A stretch of 64,000 nt of DNA from a virus (lineage: Duplodnaviria; Caudoviricetes), in the IMG/VR virus record IMGVR_UViG_3300046787_000508, positions 138,895 through 202,894 of that record; one strand, written 5' to 3'. The notes under the pieces are model-generated. The model made no database searches. It had not been told where the DNA came from and saw only the letters and a program-made list of their open reading frames with translations. This document shows, one piece after another, positions 22,682 through 32,590 of this stretch (its first letter is position 1; each line of letters opens with the position of its first letter). Made by a program: the position numbers and the translations under genes.

Positions 22682-22753
22682 GTCCTGTTAGTGTAGTGGT
22701 AGCACGAAGGTCTCTAAAACCTTTAAGGGTCGGTTCGAGTCCGACACGGGGCA
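22682..22753 (+). tRNA. amber suppressor tRNA (anticodon CTA)
   Basis: Acceptor GTCCTGT/ACGGGGC; AAGGT-CTCTAAA-ACCTT; GTCGG-TTCGAGT-CCGAC. Confidence 0.88.
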
Positions 22754-22826
22754 CAAAAATAAAAAAAATAAAAAATATTTGTTTACTATTGATATTTTTT
22801 GTAAATTTGCATATACTTATTAAACG

Positions 22827-23557: not shown

Positions 23558-23629
23558 GGCCTTGTAGCTCAGTGGTAGAGCAGTTGACTGTTAATCAACT
23601 GGTCGTTGGTTCGAATCCAACCGGGGCCT
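23558..23629 (+). tRNA. tRNA-Asn(GTT)
   Basis: Loop CTGTTAA. Confidence 0.93.
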
Positions 23630-25661: not shown

Positions 25662-27734
25662 ATGGAATTGACTAAGAACATCGTCGCTCTACAAAAAGGT
25701 CTTGTAGTACCATCTAACGACGGGATGGATAACAGAATTGCAGTTTCAACTGTACAAACTCACTTAATGGAGTGGGGTTATATGTTAGACCAAGACGCTT
25801 TCACAGAATTATCAAAATCAGACTTATCGGTTATCGTTAAATTCAATGACGAAGTAATTTCATATTTGAAAAACGTAATGGGAGGTAAAAGAGATTACCA
25901 ACCACTTTACAAAAACTTCCCTGAAGAAGTTATGTCATTATCCGATTACGAATTATATTTCAACGCCATTGTTCATTATTGGTCAAATGGTAATTGGGAA
26001 CCATCAACTGTTACATACGAGAAACCAATTAAATTTGAGAAAATCAAATATACGTTGATTAAGTTTGCAACACCTGAAAGATTCTCACAAATCTTTACTG
26101 ATTTAGTTTCAATTAACACATCATTATCTCCACAAGATATGTCAATTATTCAATGGTTTGTGAATAGCGGTGAGAAACTTGTTTTCCCAGATGTTATTCC
26201 ATTCAAAGAGAATCTTTGTACATTAGCGTCAATGGGAATTGAAGGTTTACCTGTTAAAACGACAACGGATGTATTAAGAATTGCGGTATCATTATCTGGT
26301 GGGGATATTTCATTACCTAAATTACCATTTAAAGAAGTTAGAGCAAGTCGTTGGACAACTCAAAAAGTTGATAACCCGGCAAGAGAATTGTTTAAATTTA
26401 AAAAGTTCACTCGTAAAGAGAGAAAATACCTTTTAGGTTTATTAGAACAGACAAACTGTGATGCAAGAGAAATGGTTCTTAGAGACCAAAGATGGATTCG
26501 TTTAGGTGAAATTTTACATCCGGGTGAATATAAAACAAAATTCCCTAAATCCGCTGAGGTGTTTAACAAAATCAGAAATGAGAAAGTTAAATCTTGGTAT
26601 GGAATATTGAACGATTCATTCAAGAAAGGATTGGAAGACGGTTTGAAAGTTTTATCACAAAGACCGGGTGAATTCTCACGTAGAATTGATTGGTTAATTA
26701 GAACTAACCCAAACCAATTGGATTTAATCATGTCTTATTTCAATGAGTCCGTTAAAGGAACATCGAATAAAGTATTATTTGAAGTGTATGGTCATTTCGA
26801 AGGTAGATTAGAACCAAAGAATAATCGTTCGGTTATGATTAAAGGAGCAAGAAAACGTACCGAATTACCATCATTACCTGCATTGTCAAACGATACAGTA
26901 GAAATGATTCATTCAAAACTTTTTGAAACTCTTAAAGATAAATTCTCAACATTAGAACCGTTAGGTGATTGTTGGATTGATGAGGAATTGAAAAAGATTC
27001 CATTACCGACAAATATGAGAAGTATGAACTTTTCAACTAAACCAGTTTTACGTGGTCAAAGAACACCGTTGGATAATCCTGACGCTAAAGTAATTAGACC
27101 TTTCGTTCATTGGAATGATAAAACGGGTAATGAAGATTTGGATTTAAGTGTTACCTTTGTTGGGGACTCGAATAATGTACTTTCTTTCAGTAATATGAAG
27201 GTTGGTAATTCGGTTCACTCAGGTGATGTTAGACATAGACAAGGACCTTGTGCTGAGTATATCGATATTGATATTGCCGACGCTAAATCACGTGGATTCA
27301 AATACGCTATTATTGATGTGAGAAACTATAATGGTCGTTCATTGAAATCTGTGGAATCTACATTTGGTATTATGGAAAGAGAATTTCCAGAATCAAATAA
27401 GACTTGGTTACCTGAAACTATGGTCGGTGCACAATCATTGGAATCTGAATCATCTAATACGTTAATCGCGATTGTTGATTTATACACCAAAGAGTACATT
27501 ATGTTGGATATAGATTCTGACGGTGAGGTTACCGCAAGAGGTGACGTTAAGAACACTTTGAAGATGATTGAGCAATATGCTAAACCACCAAAGGTAAGTG
27601 TATATGATTTAGTTCTATTACACGTTGAAGGGAGAGGTAGACAAGTGACATTAGATTCTAATGTTAACACCTACTTCAAATTCGAAGACTTTATGACTTC
27701 GTATGAACAAACAGGAAAATTAATGGGTGTGTAA
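25662..27734 (+). CDS. 690-aa protein: long alpha-helical region plus C-terminal TerD-like beta domain
   Basis: RPGEFSRRIDWLIR; RPFVHWND...EDLDLSV...HSGDVR...AEYIDID (TerD-like); TACATTTG promoter at 25605-25612. Confidence 0.7.
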   Translation: MELTKNIVALQKGLVVPSNDGMDNRIAVSTVQTHLMEWGYMLDQDAFTELSKSDLSVIVKFNDEVISYLKNVMGGKRDYQPLYKNFPEEVMSLSDYELYFNAIVHYWSNGNWEPSTVTYEKPIKFEKIKYTLIKFATPERFSQIFTDLVSINTSLSPQDMSIIQWFVNSGEKLVFPDVIPFKENLCTLASMGIEGLPVKTTTDVLRIAVSLSGGDISLPKLPFKEVRASRWTTQKVDNPARELFKFKKFTRKERKYLLGLLEQTNCDAREMVLRDQRWIRLGEILHPGEYKTKFPKSAEVFNKIRNEKVKSWYGILNDSFKKGLEDGLKVLSQRPGEFSRRIDWLIRTNPNQLDLIMSYFNESVKGTSNKVLFEVYGHFEGRLEPKNNRSVMIKGARKRTELPSLPALSNDTVEMIHSKLFETLKDKFSTLEPLGDCWIDEELKKIPLPTNMRSMNFSTKPVLRGQRTPLDNPDAKVIRPFVHWNDKTGNEDLDLSVTFVGDSNNVLSFSNMKVGNSVHSGDVRHRQGPCAEYIDIDIADAKSRGFKYAIIDVRNYNGRSLKSVESTFGIMEREFPESNKTWLPETMVGAQSLESESSNTLIAIVDLYTKEYIMLDIDSDGEVTARGDVKNTLKMIEQYAKPPKVSVYDLVLLHVEGRGRQVTLDSNVNTYFKFEDFMTSYEQTGKLMGV

Positions 27735-27758
27735 TACCACCCATTATTAAAATATATT

Positions 27759-28408
27759 GTGGCTATGTGTTATGTTACTTCTAAACTTTTAATTGGCTAA
27801 AAACATACATACACTCTTTCCACTTTTTAAAAATTATTGCGGCTATGTGAGATTCCAAAAGGATAACCATTAACCACATTTACTTGAGACGGGATGTTTC
27901 CGTAATGTGGTCTTAGATTAGGTGAAAGTACGGGAACAAAGGTCTTACTTCTAACATACAAATTAAGATAACACGTTAGACACACTTTTTCCGCAAAACT
28001 TATAAACGGCTATACATATTCTTACTTCTATCCAAACTTTTACTTTGACAATAGATTTGTGATTTCCGTTTTTTATTACGTTCTTTGAAAAAATATTTGG
28101 CTATAGATTGTGTTACTTCTATATGGTTAATCTTGGTTCGAATCCAAGTCATACCTGTAACAGGGTAAGATTTTTACACAACTAATCTCCAAATAAATTA
28201 TATTTTAATGGCTATGTGGGCGTGAATTGGTATAATATTTACATATCAACCACGGACTGGTTACTTCTACATCATCTGCGGGGAACTCAGCTTCGCCGCA
28301 ACCATAACAATTAACCAGCACAGTTTCCATTAAAAACTTATATCGGCTATGAATCGAGTTACTTCTAAAAACTATCAATAATGAAAACTCACTCATCCAA
28401 TTTCCGAT
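27759..28408 (+). ncRNA. array of six structured ncRNA-like units with conserved GGCTAT...TTACTTCTA
   Basis: Units 27759-27823, 27838-27995, 28005-28070, 28094-28195, 28206-28332, 28342-28408; each has covarying terminal pairing (GTGG/CCAC, TGCGG/CCGCA, AACGG/CCGTT, TATTTGG/CCAAATA, TAATGG/CCATTA, ATCGG/CCGAT). Confidence 0.75.
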
Positions 28409-28420
28409 TAATTTAAAATG

Positions 28421-28546
28421 AGGGTGGTAGCTCAGTTGGTAGAGCACGTATTCACTGGTTTAATTACCGTTTATATGGCTATATTCACAGTTACTTCTAT
28501 TAGGCTGTTAACCTCGTGGTCGTGAGTTCGAATCTCACCCACCCTC
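28421..28546 (+). ncRNA. tRNA-Asn(GTT) scaffold with 53-nt insertion carrying the seventh GGCTAT...TTACTTCTA motif
   Basis: AGGGTGG/CCACCCT acceptor, perfect D and T arms; CG[28449-28501]AGG-CTGTTAA-CCTCG. Confidence 0.75.
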
Positions 28547-28583
28547 CTATAATAAACAATAAACAACAATTAAAACAACAAAA

Positions 28584-29030
28584 ATGGCAACATCAAAAAC
28601 AACAGATGAAAAAGTTAAAGATTTATTTAACTCAGTACAAGAAAAAAAATTAGCAATTGAAAAGGCAGAAAGACCTTGTTGGTTGACTTCGGGTAATTTT
28701 GGTTACTCAACAAATTCAGCTCACGATAGAATCAATGTTCAAATCGTTAGTGATTATCGCAAAATAGTGGAAATGTACGCATTTCTTATTGATAGAAAAG
28801 AGAAGTCTGAAAAATCTGCAAATGAACTTGGAGTAGATTATAAATTTACTTGGTTAGGATTTACGGTTGACGAATGGAAAAACGATTTTCAAACAAGAGT
28901 TAATCAACTTTCAATTCAAGAAAAACGTAACGAACTTGCAGAAATCGAAGCTCGTTTAAATGCTATTATCTCACCAGATTTAAGAGCTCAAATGGAACTT
29001 GAAGCAATTTCTAAATTGCTTGATAAGTAA
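28584..29030 (+). CDS. hypothetical coiled-coil protein
   Basis: ORF directly after the ncRNA array. Confidence 0.75.
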   Translation: MATSKTTDEKVKDLFNSVQEKKLAIEKAERPCWLTSGNFGYSTNSAHDRINVQIVSDYRKIVEMYAFLIDRKEKSEKSANELGVDYKFTWLGFTVDEWKNDFQTRVNQLSIQEKRNELAEIEARLNAIISPDLRAQMELEAISKLLDK

Positions 29031-29110
29031 GTTTTCTTAGTTTCGTAAAACTAAGTGGTGGAATCGTCGTCAGTAAACTGTCGGCCCCAATAAAAAGGCT
29101 AGAAGGAATT

Positions 29111-29428
29111 CTAGTCTTTTTTGTTTATAGAAGTGTTGTCTTTATATGCGGAATTAACCTCGTATTTTGTAACACCGTGAGTTCTGGCAATATAAGCCTT
29201 TACAGGTTCAATTGCCGATTCAGTGTTATGGTAAGAATAACAATGTGGAACTAAATCTTTTGGTCCACAAATTTTACCTCCACTTTTTGTATTACTAACT
29301 GAACAATTGGCGTGTGATTCGGCCCAAGATAATACTCTTTTGAGTTCTTTACTGTTATGTGGACCTTCCATGATGAAGTTATCCAATACCTTTTTAATTT
29401 GTGATTCAGTTAAAATAATAGTCTTCAT
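29111..29428 (-). CDS. hypothetical protein with IILTESQ N-terminal motif
   Basis: MKTIILTESQIKKVL; TATTTAT upstream. Confidence 0.7.
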   Translation of the reverse strand: MKTIILTESQIKKVLDNFIMEGPHNSKELKRVLSWAESHANCSVSNTKSGGKICGPKDLVPHCYSYHNTESAIEPVKAYIARTHGVTKYEVNSAYKDNTSINKKD

Positions 29429-29487
29429 ATATCGATAATATTAAATAAATATTTGGTTTTTTAAATAAAAAAACGTATATTTTCATT

Positions 29488-30240
29488 ATGAGAATAGTTT
29501 GTATATCCGACACGCACGGTCTTCATAACATTATGGAGGATTATAACCAATTACCGAAAGGTGATATTCTTATTCATGCGGGTGATTGTACAAACGTTGG
29601 TAAACCTCAAGAAGTGATAAACTTTGTTGAATGGTTTATGAACGTAAAAGGATTTAGTAGTAAGATTTTTATTGCGGGTAATCACGATTTTGCGTTTGAA
29701 AAAAAGAATTTACCTCACCATAGAGGTGACTTCGATTGGTATTGGAATCTAATGAATGAAGAAAATCTAACCCAATCAGATGTTATTTATTTGGAAGACA
29801 ATGAATTCGTTATTGAATCTTCTGAGTTTTCTAAACCCATAAAAATTTACGGGACACCATGGCAACCAGAATTTTATAATTGGGCATTTAACCTACCAAG
29901 ACAAGGAAAAGAACTTGAGGAAAAATGGTCAAAAATTCCTGATGATACTGATATTTTAATTTCACATTCCCCACCTCATGGTTGTCGAGATTTTGTTAAA
30001 GATAGATTTGGACCAACCTCAGTTGGTTGTGAATTATTGAGACATAGGGTTGAACAAATAAAACCAATACTTAACATATTTGGACATATACATGAGGCGT
30101 ATGGATGTGTGTACGTTAAAGACACCGCACATATTAACGCATCAATATGTGATGAAAGATATGTTCCTAAAAATAAACCAATAATAATAGACCTTATTGA
30201 AATAGAAGGTATTTTAACACCAATTTTTATAGATGAGTAA
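29488..30240 (+). CDS. calcineurin-like metallophosphoesterase (MPPED/239FB type)
   Basis: ISDTH, HAGD, IAGNHD, SHSPP, FGHIHE motifs. Confidence 0.9.
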   Translation: MRIVCISDTHGLHNIMEDYNQLPKGDILIHAGDCTNVGKPQEVINFVEWFMNVKGFSSKIFIAGNHDFAFEKKNLPHHRGDFDWYWNLMNEENLTQSDVIYLEDNEFVIESSEFSKPIKIYGTPWQPEFYNWAFNLPRQGKELEEKWSKIPDDTDILISHSPPHGCRDFVKDRFGPTSVGCELLRHRVEQIKPILNIFGHIHEAYGCVYVKDTAHINASICDERYVPKNKPIIIDLIEIEGILTPIFIDE

Positions 30241-31771
30241 CATCGTATCAGTTGTAGTCTCAACAAGAAAAAAAGACGAATCGTATTATAATCACATTAG
30301 AAAAGTGTTCTCGAATCCAAAGACTGAAATCTTAATTTATGAGAATGACGGTGAAATGTCATTACCTGAAGTTTATAATAAAGGTTTAGAACAAAGCACA
30401 AATGAAATTGTGGTTTTCATGCATGACGACTTACAAATCGATTCTAAGAATATTGGTGAGAAGATATGTAAGATTTTCCAAAAGAATCCTGAGTATGGTA
30501 TTATAGGTCTTGCCGGAACCACTGATTTGGTAAATGGTAAATGGTGGGAGATTAGAAAATCAATGTACGGTAAAGTTGGACATGAGAAGGACGGTAGAAA
30601 ATGGTTATCAAAATATTCAAACGAATCCTTCGCCGACACGTTAAAAGAAGTTGTGGTGATTGATGGACTTTTTATGATGGTTCATAAAGGAAGAATAAAA
30701 AATACATTTGATACTGATTTTAAAGGATTTCACTTCTATGATATTCCGTTCTGTGTGTCTAATCACATTAACGGTGTTAAAATTGGTGTAACCACTAAAT
30801 TTGATATAACTCATAAATCAATCGGTGAAACTAATTTACAATGGGAAGAGAATAAAATCCAATTTGAAGAAAAGTTTAAAGATATTCTTCCATTGAAGAT
30901 GACAAACAACAAGAGTTTTGAAGAAAGATTAAACTATTCAAAAGACAGTATCGGTGTTGGTATGGTTACATATAATGCTGAACATAGAATTAGACAATCA
31001 TCGATAACTGTTCCTTTATGGGTGAAACATTTTGTTATTGTAAATGATGGTACACCATACACTGAAGGTTCGTATCCCGAAAACGCACATATCATCCAAC
31101 ACGAAACAAATAAGACTGTCGGTCAAGCTAAAAATAGTGCAATTGATTACTTAATGTCCCAAGGATGTGAACACATTTTTATTATGGAGGACGATGTCCT
31201 TATTAAAGATGAGAACGTATTTGACAAATACATTAAGACATCAATTAACACTGGAATTAAACACCTAAACTACGCACTACAAGGTCCGGCAAATAGAAAG
31301 GGATATCAATCATTCAATACTTTAGATGAACGTGCCAAAATGGAAGTTGATAATGACCCAAACCCAAGAGAGGTTGTTAAGTATTCAGATGACACTGAAG
31401 TTGCGTTATATCCAAACTGTGTGGGGTCATTCTCATATTACCAACGAGAAGTGTTAGAAAGTATCGGTGGGTTTGACAGTGAGTATAAAAATGCGTGGGA
31501 ACACGTTGACCACACCGTAATGGCATTTAAAAATGGATTTACAACACCTTTTTGGTGGTTTGCCGATATTAATAAATCGTGGGAGTACATTGACGATATT
31601 GAGAACTGTATTGCCGAATCAACAATTGGTCATACACCTGAGTGGCAGGCTAATAGTGTTAAGGGTTTTAAACATTTTGAAAAGAAACATGGAATGGGTC
31701 CAACCCAAATTCCAGACACATCTAAAGAGACCTTACATAAGATTTTGACCAATCTTTACCAATTTAGGTAA
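30233..31771 (+). CDS. tandem GT2-like glycosyltransferase
   Basis: VFMHDD and FIMEDD DxD-type motifs in two GT-A domains. Confidence 0.8.
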   Translation: MSNIVSVVVSTRKKDESYYNHIRKVFSNPKTEILIYENDGEMSLPEVYNKGLEQSTNEIVVFMHDDLQIDSKNIGEKICKIFQKNPEYGIIGLAGTTDLVNGKWWEIRKSMYGKVGHEKDGRKWLSKYSNESFADTLKEVVVIDGLFMMVHKGRIKNTFDTDFKGFHFYDIPFCVSNHINGVKIGVTTKFDITHKSIGETNLQWEENKIQFEEKFKDILPLKMTNNKSFEERLNYSKDSIGVGMVTYNAEHRIRQSSITVPLWVKHFVIVNDGTPYTEGSYPENAHIIQHETNKTVGQAKNSAIDYLMSQGCEHIFIMEDDVLIKDENVFDKYIKTSINTGIKHLNYALQGPANRKGYQSFNTLDERAKMEVDNDPNPREVVKYSDDTEVALYPNCVGSFSYYQREVLESIGGFDSEYKNAWEHVDHTVMAFKNGFTTPFWWFADINKSWEYIDDIENCIAESTIGHTPEWQANSVKGFKHFEKKHGMGPTQIPDTSKETLHKILTNLYQFR

Positions 31772-32178: not shown

Positions 32179-32585
32179 GGGGATGCTTTGGAATTGATTT
32201 CAAGTATCGGGGATAAATGGCATGTAGTCAGACTTCATCTATGACTTAAATCTATGGTGGAAAACTTTTAGACGGCAACGTTTACAACAACATGGAGACT
32301 GCAGGTATTCTTGCAACTTCAAACGTAGCAGTAGCCTAAGGCCAAACTACATCGGGTCGAATAACACATAACCTAGGAACAGAAGTTATCAAGGTGTAAT
32401 ACCACCAAAAGATGTATTAGGAGTCTCGTTCAGGGTGCTACTCCAACACAAGTGAATCCGACACAGTTATTGGTAACGATGTTAAAATAGGAACCAATTA
32501 TTTGTCAGTTGAGAATTAACTGAATAAACATGTAGTCATTTATTGTTGAGCGGGAAAGACCGGAGTTCGAGTCTCCGCATCTCCA
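32179..32585 (+). ncRNA. ssrA: tmRNA
   Basis: 5' GGGGATG...GGAATTGA, 3' GACCGGAGTTCGAGTCTCCGCATCTCCA; tag ORF 32274-32339 GNVYNNMETAGILATSNVAVA*; TACATTTG promoter at 32151; adjacent smpB. Confidence 0.92.
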
Positions 32586-32590
32586 CTTAT

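What the first reader, a model, noticed from the sequence alone, without database searches (positions are those of the whole stretch)
27759..28546. Seven-unit array of structured RNAs with constant GGCTAT...TTACTTCTA core and interchangeable payload domains
Seen: GGCTAT at 27761, 27841, 28008, 28099, 28210, 28345, 28477 and TTACTTCTA at 27775, 27945, 28022, 28113, 28261, 28359, 28491; five units space them by exactly 8 variable nt, two carry long hairpin inserts. In units 1-6 the variable 5' flank pairs with the 3' end and the variable 8-mer pairs downstream (e.g. TTGTG/CACAA, GAGTT/AACTC, CTGGTT/AACCAG), i.e. compensatory change within one genome, so selection is on RNA structure. Payloads differ: unit 4 has a T arm followed by a capped stem (order seen in permuted tRNA-like Y RNAs), unit 5 a GC hairpin. 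Inference: a protein-plus-multiple-guide/decoy RNA system resembling Ro60-Y RNA, not CRISPR.
Basis: partly seen in the sequence, partly recalled or inferred. Interest (0 to 1): 0.92.

Follow-up and report, generated by a model that had tools for sequence, protein, structure and literature searches.

The report
New RNA family partnered with TerD protein
The seven repeats are genes for an apparently undescribed family of folded RNAs, some shaped like pieces of tRNA, that sit beside one uncharacterised 700-residue protein gene in many bacteria and phages, much as Y RNAs sit beside Ro60.

Summary

- **RNA structure.** Units 1-6 share a covarying scaffold. It has a closing stem P1 ending GG/CC, an internal loop (5' CUAU, 3' nnUUU), and a stem P2 of 4+4 pairs with a one-base bulge. 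A conserved apical junction follows (GUUACUUCUA ... UUAC). A variable payload sits at the apex or at the bulge. On 53 units from many loci, 90% of cells pair, against 62% in shuffles.
- **Unit 7.** It is the same scaffold circularly permuted and inserted in the anticodon arm of a tRNA-Asn.
- **Link to the protein.** In 141 Paenibacillaceae-type genomes, 42 hold the RNA and 41 hold the protein, and 41 hold both. All 212 model hits in protein-anchored loci lie on the gene's strand, directly beside it. No other neighbouring gene is conserved in bacteria.
- **The protein.** The 690-aa protein has a helical domain plus a TerD beta-sandwich. It has no TROVE domain and only a weak whole-length fold resemblance to Ro60.
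- **Payloads.** They include anticodon-arm-like hairpins, a T arm with a capped stem and, in relatives, the permuted tRNA module of YrlA or a whole tRNA.
- **Novelty.** Rfam 15 has no family for the scaffold, and I found no paper on it.
- **Reading.** It is a Ro60/Y-RNA-like ribonucleoprotein of a new kind. Binding, processing and function are inferred, not shown.

The parts
25662..27734 (+). Gene of the 690-aa partner protein: N-terminal helical domain, TerD-like beta-sandwich (about residues 470-636), C-terminal helices
   Evidence: ORF. No Pfam hit. phrog_33734, unknown function. NCBIfam NF041916 RING_SCO0854 below its cut-off. AF2 model pLDDT 88, pTM 0.85. TerD structures at Z 13.2 and 11.9; Ro60 structures at Z 5.2-5.9. 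Adjacent to the RNA array in every testable locus.
27758..27824 (+). Unit 1: minimal scaffold; payload holds the UUGGn motif shared by one unit class in phages and bacteria
   Evidence: Model R1, 64.2 bits. P1 is GTGG/CCAC; P2 is GTGT-T-ATG-T with A-CAT-ACAC.
27837..27996 (+). Unit 2: scaffold with a conserved, branched domain of about 95 nt inserted at the P2 bulge
   Evidence: P1 is TTGCGG/CCGCAA. Local R1 hit on P2b and the apical junction. The insert domain is conserved and shows compensatory changes in 8 phage loci.
28004..28071 (+). Unit 3: scaffold whose payload is an anticodon-arm-like hairpin (CAAA CUUUUAC UUUG)
   Evidence: R1, 59.4 bits. Hairpin listed.
28094..28195 (+). Unit 4: scaffold whose payload is a T arm (CTTGG TTCGAAT CCAAG) followed by a capped acceptor-like hairpin
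   Evidence: R1, 43.4 bits with a 44-nt insertion at the apex. Sequence. Orthologous units in other phages. Fuller versions with a D arm occur in L267 and L173.
28203..28335 (+). Unit 5: scaffold with a 38-nt hairpin insert at the P2 bulge and a G+C-rich hairpin as payload
   Evidence: P1 is TTTTAATGG/CCATTAAAA. R1 matches P1, the internal loop and P2a. The single-sequence fold agrees.
28342..28408 (+). Unit 6: minimal scaffold with a short A-rich payload
   Evidence: R1, 65.1 bits.
28421..28546 (+). Unit 7: tRNA-Asn(GUU)-like gene interrupted between nucleotides 28 and 29 of the anticodon stem
   Evidence: Rfam tRNA, 45.3 bits, with 66 nt where the model has 13. Its stems differ from those of the intact tRNA-Asn at 23558.
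28449..28501 (+). 53-nt insert of unit 7: a circularly permuted scaffold, in the order UUC-ACUG (P2b'), P2a', AAUUA, CCGU (P1'), UUAU loop, AUGG (P1), CUAU, AUUC-A-CAG (P2), UUACUUCUA
   Evidence: Read by hand against the consensus of alignment A2. The same permutation occurs in all 8 distinct interrupted tRNAs found (Asn and Tyr types) and is clearest in L217.

Best explanation
The array encodes seven paralogous members of an undescribed family of modular non-coding RNAs. Each has a conserved scaffold hairpin of about 45 nt: stem P1, the CUAU/UUU internal loop, stem P2 and the GUUACUUCUA/UUAC apical junction. I take the scaffold to be the binding handle for the adjacent 690-aa protein (helical domain plus TerD domain). 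The variable payload at the apex or at the P2 bulge is the working end. In this family the payload is often a piece of tRNA: an anticodon-arm-like hairpin, a T arm with a capped acceptor stem, the full permuted tRNA module known from YrlA, or a whole tRNA. Unit 7 has the same handle turned inside out and grafted onto the anticodon arm of a tRNA. The array is most likely transcribed with the protein gene and cut into unit-length RNAs. Each RNA would load onto the protein, giving a set of ribonucleoproteins that present tRNA-shaped modules to tRNA-binding factors, or recruit such factors, in the manner of Ro60 with its Y RNAs. In this large phage the array sits at the end of a region with 27 tRNA genes and near a tmRNA gene, so it is probably part of the phage's translation and tRNA toolkit. 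Shown here: the RNA structure, the gene linkage and co-occurrence, the tRNA-like payloads, and the protein's TerD domain. Inferred: protein-RNA binding, processing into units, and the tRNA-directed function.
For: Structure:
- Covariation on A2: 90.4% of cells paired against 61.9% in shuffles; 12 of 15 pairs have changes on both sides.
- Covariation on 95 further units, A3: 93.8% against 57.7%.

Specificity:
- Model R1 finds only these units in the window and in the whole virus record.
- Whole-genome searches of Paenibacillus, Chitinimonas, Brevibacillus, Variovorax and Achromobacter find the RNA only next to the gene.

Linkage:
- Motif-first loci: 21 of 23 arrays have the gene adjacent, and the other 2 are cut by the locus end. 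In L059, L072 and L102 the gene lies on the other side of the array.
- Protein-first loci: 42 of 80 bacterial loci and about 60 of 79 viral loci have hits. All 212 hits are on the gene's strand, directly upstream or downstream.
- Of 141 genomes of one family, 42 have the RNA, 41 have the protein and 41 have both. Genomes with two gene copies have RNAs at both.
- No other protein neighbour is conserved in bacteria.

tRNA-like payloads:
-.
- Rfam YrlA matches model positions 23-87 only, in L173 (31.6 bits) and L267 (44.3 bits).

Protein:
- Confident model and a clear TerD domain.
- Three Ro60 structures align over about 300 residues at Z 5.2-5.9.
Against:
- Gene adjacency and co-occurrence do not prove binding.
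- The Ro60 fold match is within the range that helical repeat proteins reach by chance, and Foldseek does not see it.
- In most Paenibacillaceae the RNAs lie 60-150 nt upstream of the gene, which would also fit a leader.
- The perfect anticodon-loop halves flanking the insert in the Tyr-type tRNAs (CUGUA ... AA) suggest excision rather than a permanent chimera. That points to an RNA-processing role which the simple 'handle plus bait' model does not explain.
Confidence: 0.62

Rival explanations
1. Excision and splicing cassette. The scaffold marks an RNA for cutting at the two apical junctions, after UUACUUCUA and before UUAC, by the partner protein or by the RNA itself. In ordinary units this releases the payload, perhaps as a circle. 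In the permuted form inside tRNAs it removes the scaffold as an intron, and a ligase rejoins the tRNA.
For: - In all 8 interrupted tRNAs, removing the insert restores a canonical anticodon arm: CG|AGG with CCUCG in the Asn type; CUGUA|AA, or |GA in L217, in the Tyr type.
- The tRNA bodies have diverged with compensatory changes while the anticodon loops stay canonical.
- The insertion point differs between the two tRNA types, but in both it lies at the open top of the scaffold.
- One unit in L125 carries a complete tRNA-CAU with an encoded CCA end between the same two junctions.
Against: - No bulge-helix-bulge motif is present, and the insert lacks group I or II features.
- The 203-kb record holds no EndA, RtcB or Rnl2 gene.
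- The distance from UUACUUCU to the 3' junction varies from 1 to 8 nt.
- Bacterial units have payloads of only 13-30 nt, so there is little to release.
- The window holds intact tRNA-Asn and tRNA-Tyr genes, so splicing is not needed.
- No catalytic motif was recognised in the protein.
Confidence: 0.15
2. Regulatory or antitoxin-like RNA. The RNAs bind the protein mainly to hold it inactive or to titrate it, as the ToxI repeats do for ToxN in type III toxin-antitoxin systems. The payloads would be secondary.
For: Tandem RNA units lie on the same strand next to a single protein gene, and nothing else is conserved. Ter-family genes have been linked to phage exclusion (PMC7824862).
Against: - The units are not near-identical repeats; their stems have diverged with compensation.
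- Payloads are elaborate and conserved across phages.
- The protein is about 700 aa with no nuclease signature, and PADLOC does not recognise it.
- The units lie downstream of the gene in many lineages.
Confidence: 0.1
3. The system is a true but divergent member of the Ro60/Y RNA system: the protein is a Ro60 orthologue whose vWA domain was replaced by TerD, and the RNAs are divergent YrlA/YrlB.
For: Three Ro60 structures align over 292-304 residues spanning both domains. YrlA model positions 23-87 match the payload in L173 and L267.
Against: - No TROVE hit in the protein or in the genome record.
- The A4 profile finds no PDB sequence.
- The Ro60-binding motif GNCGAAN0-1G (PMC4201824) is absent from the scaffold.
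- YrlA scores are far below the gathering score of 69 because the stem module does not match.
- 34 of the 141 genomes carry separate TROVE-matching genes, with no clear relation to this locus.
Confidence: 0.05
4. The element is a cis-acting leader (riboswitch or autoregulatory protein-binding site) of the TerD-family gene, or a DNA-level repeat such as an operator or recombination site.
For: In Paenibacillaceae the units lie 60-150 nt upstream on the same strand.
Against: - The units lie downstream of the gene in this phage and in at least 12 bacterial loci.
- A locus holds from 1 to 9 units.
- Payloads are tRNA-like, and a permuted copy sits inside tRNA genes.
- The compensatory changes preserve RNA pairing, not DNA sequence.
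- The two motifs tolerate inserts of 40-100 nt between them, which a DNA operator would not.
Confidence: 0.03

Closest known systems
Bacterial Y RNAs, YrlA/YrlB (Rfam RF02553), with Ro60/Rsr
   Same: Modular RNAs encoded next to one RNA-binding protein gene, usually two or more per locus. A stem formed by the 5' and 3' ends carries conserved loops. At least one RNA per locus often carries a permuted tRNA module (T arm, capped acceptor stem, D arm) in place of the anticodon arm. The YrlA model matches that module in L173 and L267. Both occur in bacteria and in phages (PMC4201824).
   Different: The stem module is unrelated: it has GGCUAU, UUACUUCUA/UUCCUUCUA and UUUCC instead of GNCGAAN0-1G. 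The partner protein has no TROVE or vWA domain; it has a helical domain plus a TerD domain. Payloads also include anticodon-arm mimics, whole tRNAs and large novel domains. A permuted copy sits inside tRNA genes.
Archaeal pre-tRNA-Trp intron encoding a box C/D guide RNA (from my own knowledge, not checked here)
   Same: A protein-binding small RNA module is housed inside the anticodon-arm insert of a tRNA precursor. This brings its partner protein to the tRNA in cis.
   Different: There are no C/D boxes and no bulge-helix-bulge motif. The host is a bacterial virus. Splicing has not been shown.
Type III toxin-antitoxin systems (ToxIN)
   Same: A tandem array of structured RNA units lies on the same strand next to a single protein gene.
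   Different: ToxI repeats are near-identical 36-nt units cut by a small endoribonuclease toxin. Here the units have diverged stems and different payloads, and the protein is about 700 aa with a TerD domain.
TerD-domain proteins of the tellurite-resistance (Ter) system
   Same: The C-terminal beta-sandwich superposes on TerD structures (Z 13.2 and 11.9). The DxDL and SGD motifs are conserved.
   Different: Classical TerD proteins are about 190 aa, stand alone in ter operons, and have no known RNA partner. Here the domain is fused to a 450-aa helical domain, and the gene is not in a ter operon.

Membership tests
YrlA / Y RNA (Rfam RF02553, RF00019) | Reaches the family's Rfam gathering score | tested here: not met
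   No YrlA or Y_RNA match at E<=10 in window 27600-28700. In relatives the score is 31.6 and 44.3 bits against a gathering score of 69, and only model positions 23-87 match.
YrlA / Y RNA (Rfam RF02553, RF00019) | Ro60-binding motif GNCGAAN0-1G (GGUCCGA-like) in the 5' strand of the terminal stem (PMC4201824) | tested here: not met
   The 5' strand of the scaffold reads nnnGG-CUAU-N8-UUACUUCUA in all units. The motif is absent.
YrlA / Y RNA (Rfam RF02553, RF00019) | tRNA-like module in permuted order: T arm, capped acceptor stem, D arm | tested here: met
   Complete in L173:6118-6186 and L267:3445-3507. Window unit 4 has the T arm and the capped stem but no D arm.
YrlA / Y RNA (Rfam RF02553, RF00019) | Encoded beside a Ro60/TROVE gene | tested here: not met
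   No TROVE match in the 203-kb record, which is 60% complete. The neighbour is the TerD-family gene.
Ro60 / TROVE proteins | TROVE domain recognisable by sequence | tested here: not met
   No Pfam TROVE hit for P0001 or for any of the 39 homologues. The A4 profile finds no PDB sequence at E<=10.
Ro60 / TROVE proteins | Ring of helical repeats closed by a C-terminal domain (fold) | tested here: inconclusive
   VIA-align gives 1yvp Z 5.9 with 304 residues aligned, 9l5y Z 5.5 with 292, and 2nvo Z 5.2 with 294, each spanning model residues 128-690. These values are below the level that excludes chance for helical repeats. Foldseek does not list Ro60.
Ro60 / TROVE proteins | C-terminal vWA domain with a MIDAS site | tested here: not met
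   The C-terminal domain is a TerD beta-sandwich.
TerD domain family (PF02342) | TerD beta-sandwich fold | tested here: met
   2qz7 at Z 13.2 with rmsd 2.5 over 147 residues; 2kxt at Z 11.9. Foldseek E-values of 4e-5 to 1e-3. The Pfam TerD model is hit by only 2 of 39 homologues.
CRISPR array | Near-identical direct repeats separated by unique spacers of constant length | tested here: not met
   Only 15 conserved bases per unit. Stems differ and compensate. Unit lengths run from 65 to 160 nt.
Known tRNA intron classes | Group I or II ribozyme core, or an archaeal bulge-helix-bulge motif at the junctions | tested here: inconclusive
   The insert is 50-56 nt, and Rfam finds no intron family. I saw no bulge-helix-bulge motif by eye or in the folds. 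I did not run a dedicated search for that motif.

The most novel reading that the evidence does not exclude
The scaffold and its TerD-family protein form an RNA-cutting and RNA-joining machine. Cleavage at the two apical junctions would excise payload RNAs from ordinary units. It would also splice the permuted scaffold out of tRNA-Asn and tRNA-Tyr precursors. This would be a new, protein-guided kind of tRNA intron in bacteria and their viruses.
Probability: 0.15. Interest if true: 0.95.

Novelty: new variant of a known kind. Interest (0 to 1): 0.85.

Why it matters
If the reading holds, this is a second Ro60/Y-RNA-like ribonucleoprotein class in bacteria and phages, independent of the first.

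- It has its own RNA handle and its own protein.
- It occurs in Bacillota, Beta-, Gamma- and Deltaproteobacteria, Acidobacteriota, Bacteroidota, Planctomycetota, cyanobacteria-related lineages and large phages.
- It gives a first functional lead for a large 'TerD-domain / RING_SCO0854-like' protein family that has no known role.
- It shows that the permuted tRNA module of YrlA has been combined with at least two different protein-binding stems.
- It provides a covariance model and cultivable hosts (Paenibacillus, Brevibacillus, Heyndrickxia, Achromobacter, Variovorax) in which the system can be tested directly.
- The permuted copies inside tRNA genes raise the testable possibility of a new kind of tRNA intron.

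Tried and rejected
- **Rfam.** Scans of the window, of the array at E<=10 and of 14 bacterial loci found no family for the scaffold.
- **Phage records.** blastn against GenBank phage records gave no match.
- **Known ribozymes.** Hammerhead, twister, pistol, hatchet and HDV-like ribozymes are all in Rfam, and none matched.
- **Promoter reading.** I rejected a sigma-70 promoter reading of the two motifs. Inserts of 40-100 nt lie between them, and the promoter and terminator scans were at or below the shuffled expectation.
- **Guide reading.** I rejected it for the 8-mer, because it is paired inside the unit.
- **Chance matches.** The pattern scan of viral contigs returned many single matches that chance can explain (15 fixed bases in a very large collection). 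I used only multi-copy loci.
- **Protein families.** Pfam, PADLOC and PDB sequence searches gave nothing for the protein. The AFDB label 'ZorC EH domain' on one 33%-identical homologue is an automatic name, and I did not rely on it.
- **First structure model.** The first AF2 model, built from 12 sequences, was poor (pLDDT 67) and was replaced.
- **RNA repair genes.** RtcB, EndA and Rnl2 were not found in the virus record.
- **Literature.** Searches by motif, TerD, YrlA, SCO0854 and ZorC found nothing on this system.
- **Earlier scan notes.** They hold only first-reader notes on this genome and nothing from other genomes.
Full report
**Where the window lies.** The window is bases 138895-202894 of a 202.9-kb IMG/VR virus record, estimated 60% complete. 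It is an A+T-rich large phage. The window holds 27 tRNA genes at 17.7-25.3 kb, including a CUA suppressor, and a tmRNA gene at 32179-32588. The finding lies just behind the tRNA region, directly after a 690-codon ORF (25662-27734).

- TTACTTCTA is exact seven times between 27775 and 28499, all on the + strand. One unrelated copy lies elsewhere in the window.
- GGCTAT lies 8 nt upstream in five units and 46-98 nt upstream in units 5 and 2.
- The pair of motifs occurs nowhere else in the virus record.

**Anatomy of units 1-6.** I compared them with 53 simple units from other phage and metagenome loci (alignment A2). The common structure, from the base upward, is:
- P1, 4-9 bp, always ending in two G-C pairs (the GG of GGCTAT with a downstream CC).
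- An internal loop, 5' CUAU opposite 3' nnUUU.
- P2, made of 4 bp, one bulged base on the 5' strand, 3 bp and a U-A pair.
- An apical junction in which GUUACUUCUA on the 5' side faces (n)UUAC on the 3' side.
- The payload.

*Covariation.*
- Across A2, 90.4% of cells form standard pairs, against 61.9% when partners are shuffled and 33-49% when partners are slid.
- 223 cells are changed on both sides, against 71 in shuffles. 12 of 15 pairs show compensatory change.
- A second set of 95 units, mostly from bacteria, gives 93.8% against 57.7%. That alignment was fitted to the model.

*Specificity and payload sites.*
- A covariance model (R1) finds the seven units and nothing else in the window.
- Payloads attach at the apex (units 1, 3, 4, 6) or at both the apex and the P2 bulge (units 2, 5).
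- The 95-nt bulge domain of unit 2 is conserved in eight phages and has its own compensatory changes.

**Unit 7 is different and informative.**
- It lies inside a tRNA gene (28421-28546; Rfam tRNA 45.3 bits with a long insertion).
- Removing 28449-28501 restores a tRNA-Asn(GUU) anticodon arm: CG|AGG pairing with CCUCG, and the loop CUGUUAA.
- The insert is not a random sequence that carries the motif. It is the whole scaffold, circularly permuted. Reading from the 5' junction, the order is the 3' strand of P2, AAUUA, CCGU, a UUAU loop, AUGG, CUAU, the 5' strand of P2, and UUACUUCUA. P1 is closed by a tetraloop, and the open end is the apex, where ordinary units carry their payload.

*The eight interrupted tRNAs.*
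- I found eight distinct interrupted tRNAs of two kinds. The Asn type is split between nucleotides 28 and 29.
- The Tyr(GUA) type is split after CUGUA and before AA, or before GA in L217.
- All fit the permuted scaffold. L217 fits almost perfectly: UUACUC-GAUA-AAUUU-CUGA-[GUAU]-UCGG-CUAC-UGUC-A-GAG-UUACUUCUA.

*The tRNA body is not a recent copy.*
- The stems of unit 7 differ from those of the phage's intact tRNA-Asn at 23558.
- Among phages the acceptor and T stems have changed with compensation, while the anticodon loops stay canonical.

**The link to the protein is the strongest result.**
- *Starting from the motif.* Of 23 arrays in viral contigs, 21 have a homologue of the 690-aa protein adjacent. 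The other two are cut at the locus end. In three distant loci (L059, L072, L102; about 30% identity) the gene lies on the other side of the array.
- *Starting from the protein.* R1 hits at E<0.01 occur in 42 of 80 bacterial loci and in about 60 of 79 viral loci (loci). All 212 hits are on the gene's strand, and almost all lie immediately upstream or downstream. One hit, in L195, lies about 2 kb upstream.
- *Carriers.* They include Paenibacillus, Bacillus, Brevibacillus, Heyndrickxia, Lachnospiraceae, Polaromonas, Variovorax, Achromobacter, Chitinimonas, Pyrinomonadaceae, Sphingobacteriales, Thermoguttaceae and others.
- *Co-occurrence.* With a model that includes the bacterial variants (R2), 42 of 141 genomes of one bacterial family have the RNA and 41 have the protein. 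41 have both, one has only the RNA, and 99 have neither. Genomes with two gene copies have RNAs at both loci.
- *Whole genomes.* In whole-genome searches the only hits are those beside the gene.
- *Neighbours.* In bacteria no other neighbouring protein is conserved. The module is one gene plus one to several RNA units, usually two.
- *Position.* The units lie downstream of the gene in this phage and in at least 12 bacterial loci, and upstream in others. This argues against a simple 5' leader.
- *Core variant.* Bacterial units have the core GGCUAU ... CUUCCUUCUA ... UUAG ... UUUCC. The phage clade and its closest bacterial relatives have GUUACUUCUA ... UUAC. The core variant follows the deep split of the protein family.

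**Payloads.**
- One unit class, found in both phages and bacteria, has a short loop with (A)UUGGnGAA (window unit 1).
- Others are hairpins with a 7-nt loop of the form CU-NNN-A(A/C) on a 4-5 bp stem. These are anticodon-arm look-alikes whose 'anticodons' differ between loci (window unit 3).
- Window unit 4 has a T arm followed by a capped stem.
- In L267 (a phage) and L173 (a Lachnospiraceae genome) the payload is the complete permuted tRNA module: T arm, capped acceptor stem, D arm. Rfam's YrlA model matches exactly this part (model positions 23-87; 44.3 and 31.6 bits). It does not match the flanking Ro60-binding stem, so the gathering score of 69 is not reached.
- In L125 one unit carries a whole tRNA-CAU with an encoded CCA end between the two apical junctions.

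**The protein.**
- It has no Pfam, PADLOC or PDB sequence match. It belongs to phrog_33734, of unknown function.
- It is related, below the cut-off, to NCBIfam NF041916, 'MXAN_6230/SCO0854 family RING domain-containing protein'.
- With 39 homologues AlphaFold gives a confident model (pLDDT 88, pTM 0.85).
- Residues 474-636 are a TerD beta-sandwich (2qz7 Z 13.2; 2kxt Z 11.9). The conserved DxDL and SGD motifs fit this.
- The N-terminal 450 residues are helical, with many invariant arginines.
- An aligner that does not depend on Foldseek lists three Ro60 structures over about 300 residues spanning both halves of the model: 1yvp Z 5.9, phage 9l5y Z 5.5, Deinococcus 2nvo Z 5.2. For helical repeats such values can arise by chance, and Foldseek does not list Ro60. 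I treat this as a lead, not as evidence of homology.
- No TROVE gene is present in the virus record.

**What it most likely is.** It is a new family of modular non-coding RNAs. Their conserved scaffold would be the handle for the adjacent helical-plus-TerD protein, and their payloads, often tRNA-shaped, would be the working ends.
- This is the logic of Ro60 with its Y RNAs (PMC4201824), built from a different stem and a different protein.
- The phage has expanded the set to seven RNAs and placed it beside its tRNA and tmRNA genes.
- I infer that the ribonucleoproteins present tRNA-like baits to tRNA-binding factors, or tether such factors.
- Binding, processing and function are inferences.

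**The main rival.** The scaffold may mark RNAs for excision and rejoining. The evidence for this is the canonical anticodon arms restored by removing the permuted scaffold, and the whole tRNA held between the same junctions. Against it:
- there is no known splicing motif;
- the record holds no ligase or endonuclease gene;
- the 3' junction distance is variable;
- bacterial payloads are very short.

I give lower odds to an antitoxin-like regulatory RNA, to a truly divergent Ro60/Y RNA system, and to a cis-acting leader or DNA repeat.

**Novelty.** Rfam 15 has no model for the scaffold. Literature searches by motif, by protein family names and by YrlA or TerD found nothing. Within what I could search, the RNA family, its link to this protein family and the permuted copies inside tRNA genes are undescribed.

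**Downstream genes.** The genes that follow the array are conserved next to it only in the phage clade. They are a 148-aa protein (phrog_2574, with a weak Nmad5 lead), a metallophosphatase, and a GT2 glycosyltransferase with a weak TET-associated glycosyltransferase hit. They look like a separate nucleotide-modification module.

Noticed in passing
L125:7557-7680: One scaffold unit in a Puia sp. metagenome contig (a phage-like region) carries a complete tRNA-CAU with an encoded CCA end as its payload. After tRNA processing the two scaffold halves would stay paired as a split RNA.
   Followed up: partly
window 27785-27805; alignment A3 (many loci): One unit class in both phages and bacteria has a conserved (A)UUGGnGAA in the payload loop. 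UGGN is the sequence that T-box leaders use to pair with the tRNA 3' NCCA end. I did not test whether N tracks a discriminator base.
   Followed up: no
window 28584-31771: The 148-aa protein (phrog_2574, weak Nmad5 lead), the calcineurin-like phosphoesterase and the GT2 glycosyltransferase (with a weak TET-associated glycosyltransferase hit) follow the array in the phage clade only. They are probably a DNA or nucleotide modification module rather than part of the RNA system.
   Followed up: partly
window 32179-32588: A phage-encoded tmRNA (Rfam 81.3 bits) lies 3.6 kb downstream of the array. ARAGORN did not report it.
   Followed up: no
window 22682-22754: A tRNA with anticodon CUA (an amber suppressor, which ARAGORN labels Pyl) lies inside the tRNA cluster. 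This hints at TAG recoding in part of the phage genome.
   Followed up: no
G082:C1:2159686-2159753: This is the one genome among 141 that has the RNA but no protein match at E<=1e-10. The gene may be degraded or may have been missed; I did not inspect it.
   Followed up: no
NCBIfam NF041916 relatives (Actinomycetota, Myxococcota): A sister family carries an N-terminal prokaryotic RING finger on the same helical-plus-TerD body. I did not test whether those genes also have the RNA beside them.
   Followed up: no
L133:6059-6215: In Heyndrickxia sporothermodurans two units follow the gene, and the last P1 stem runs straight into a U tract. This suggests that the gene and the RNAs form one transcript that ends there.
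   Followed up: no
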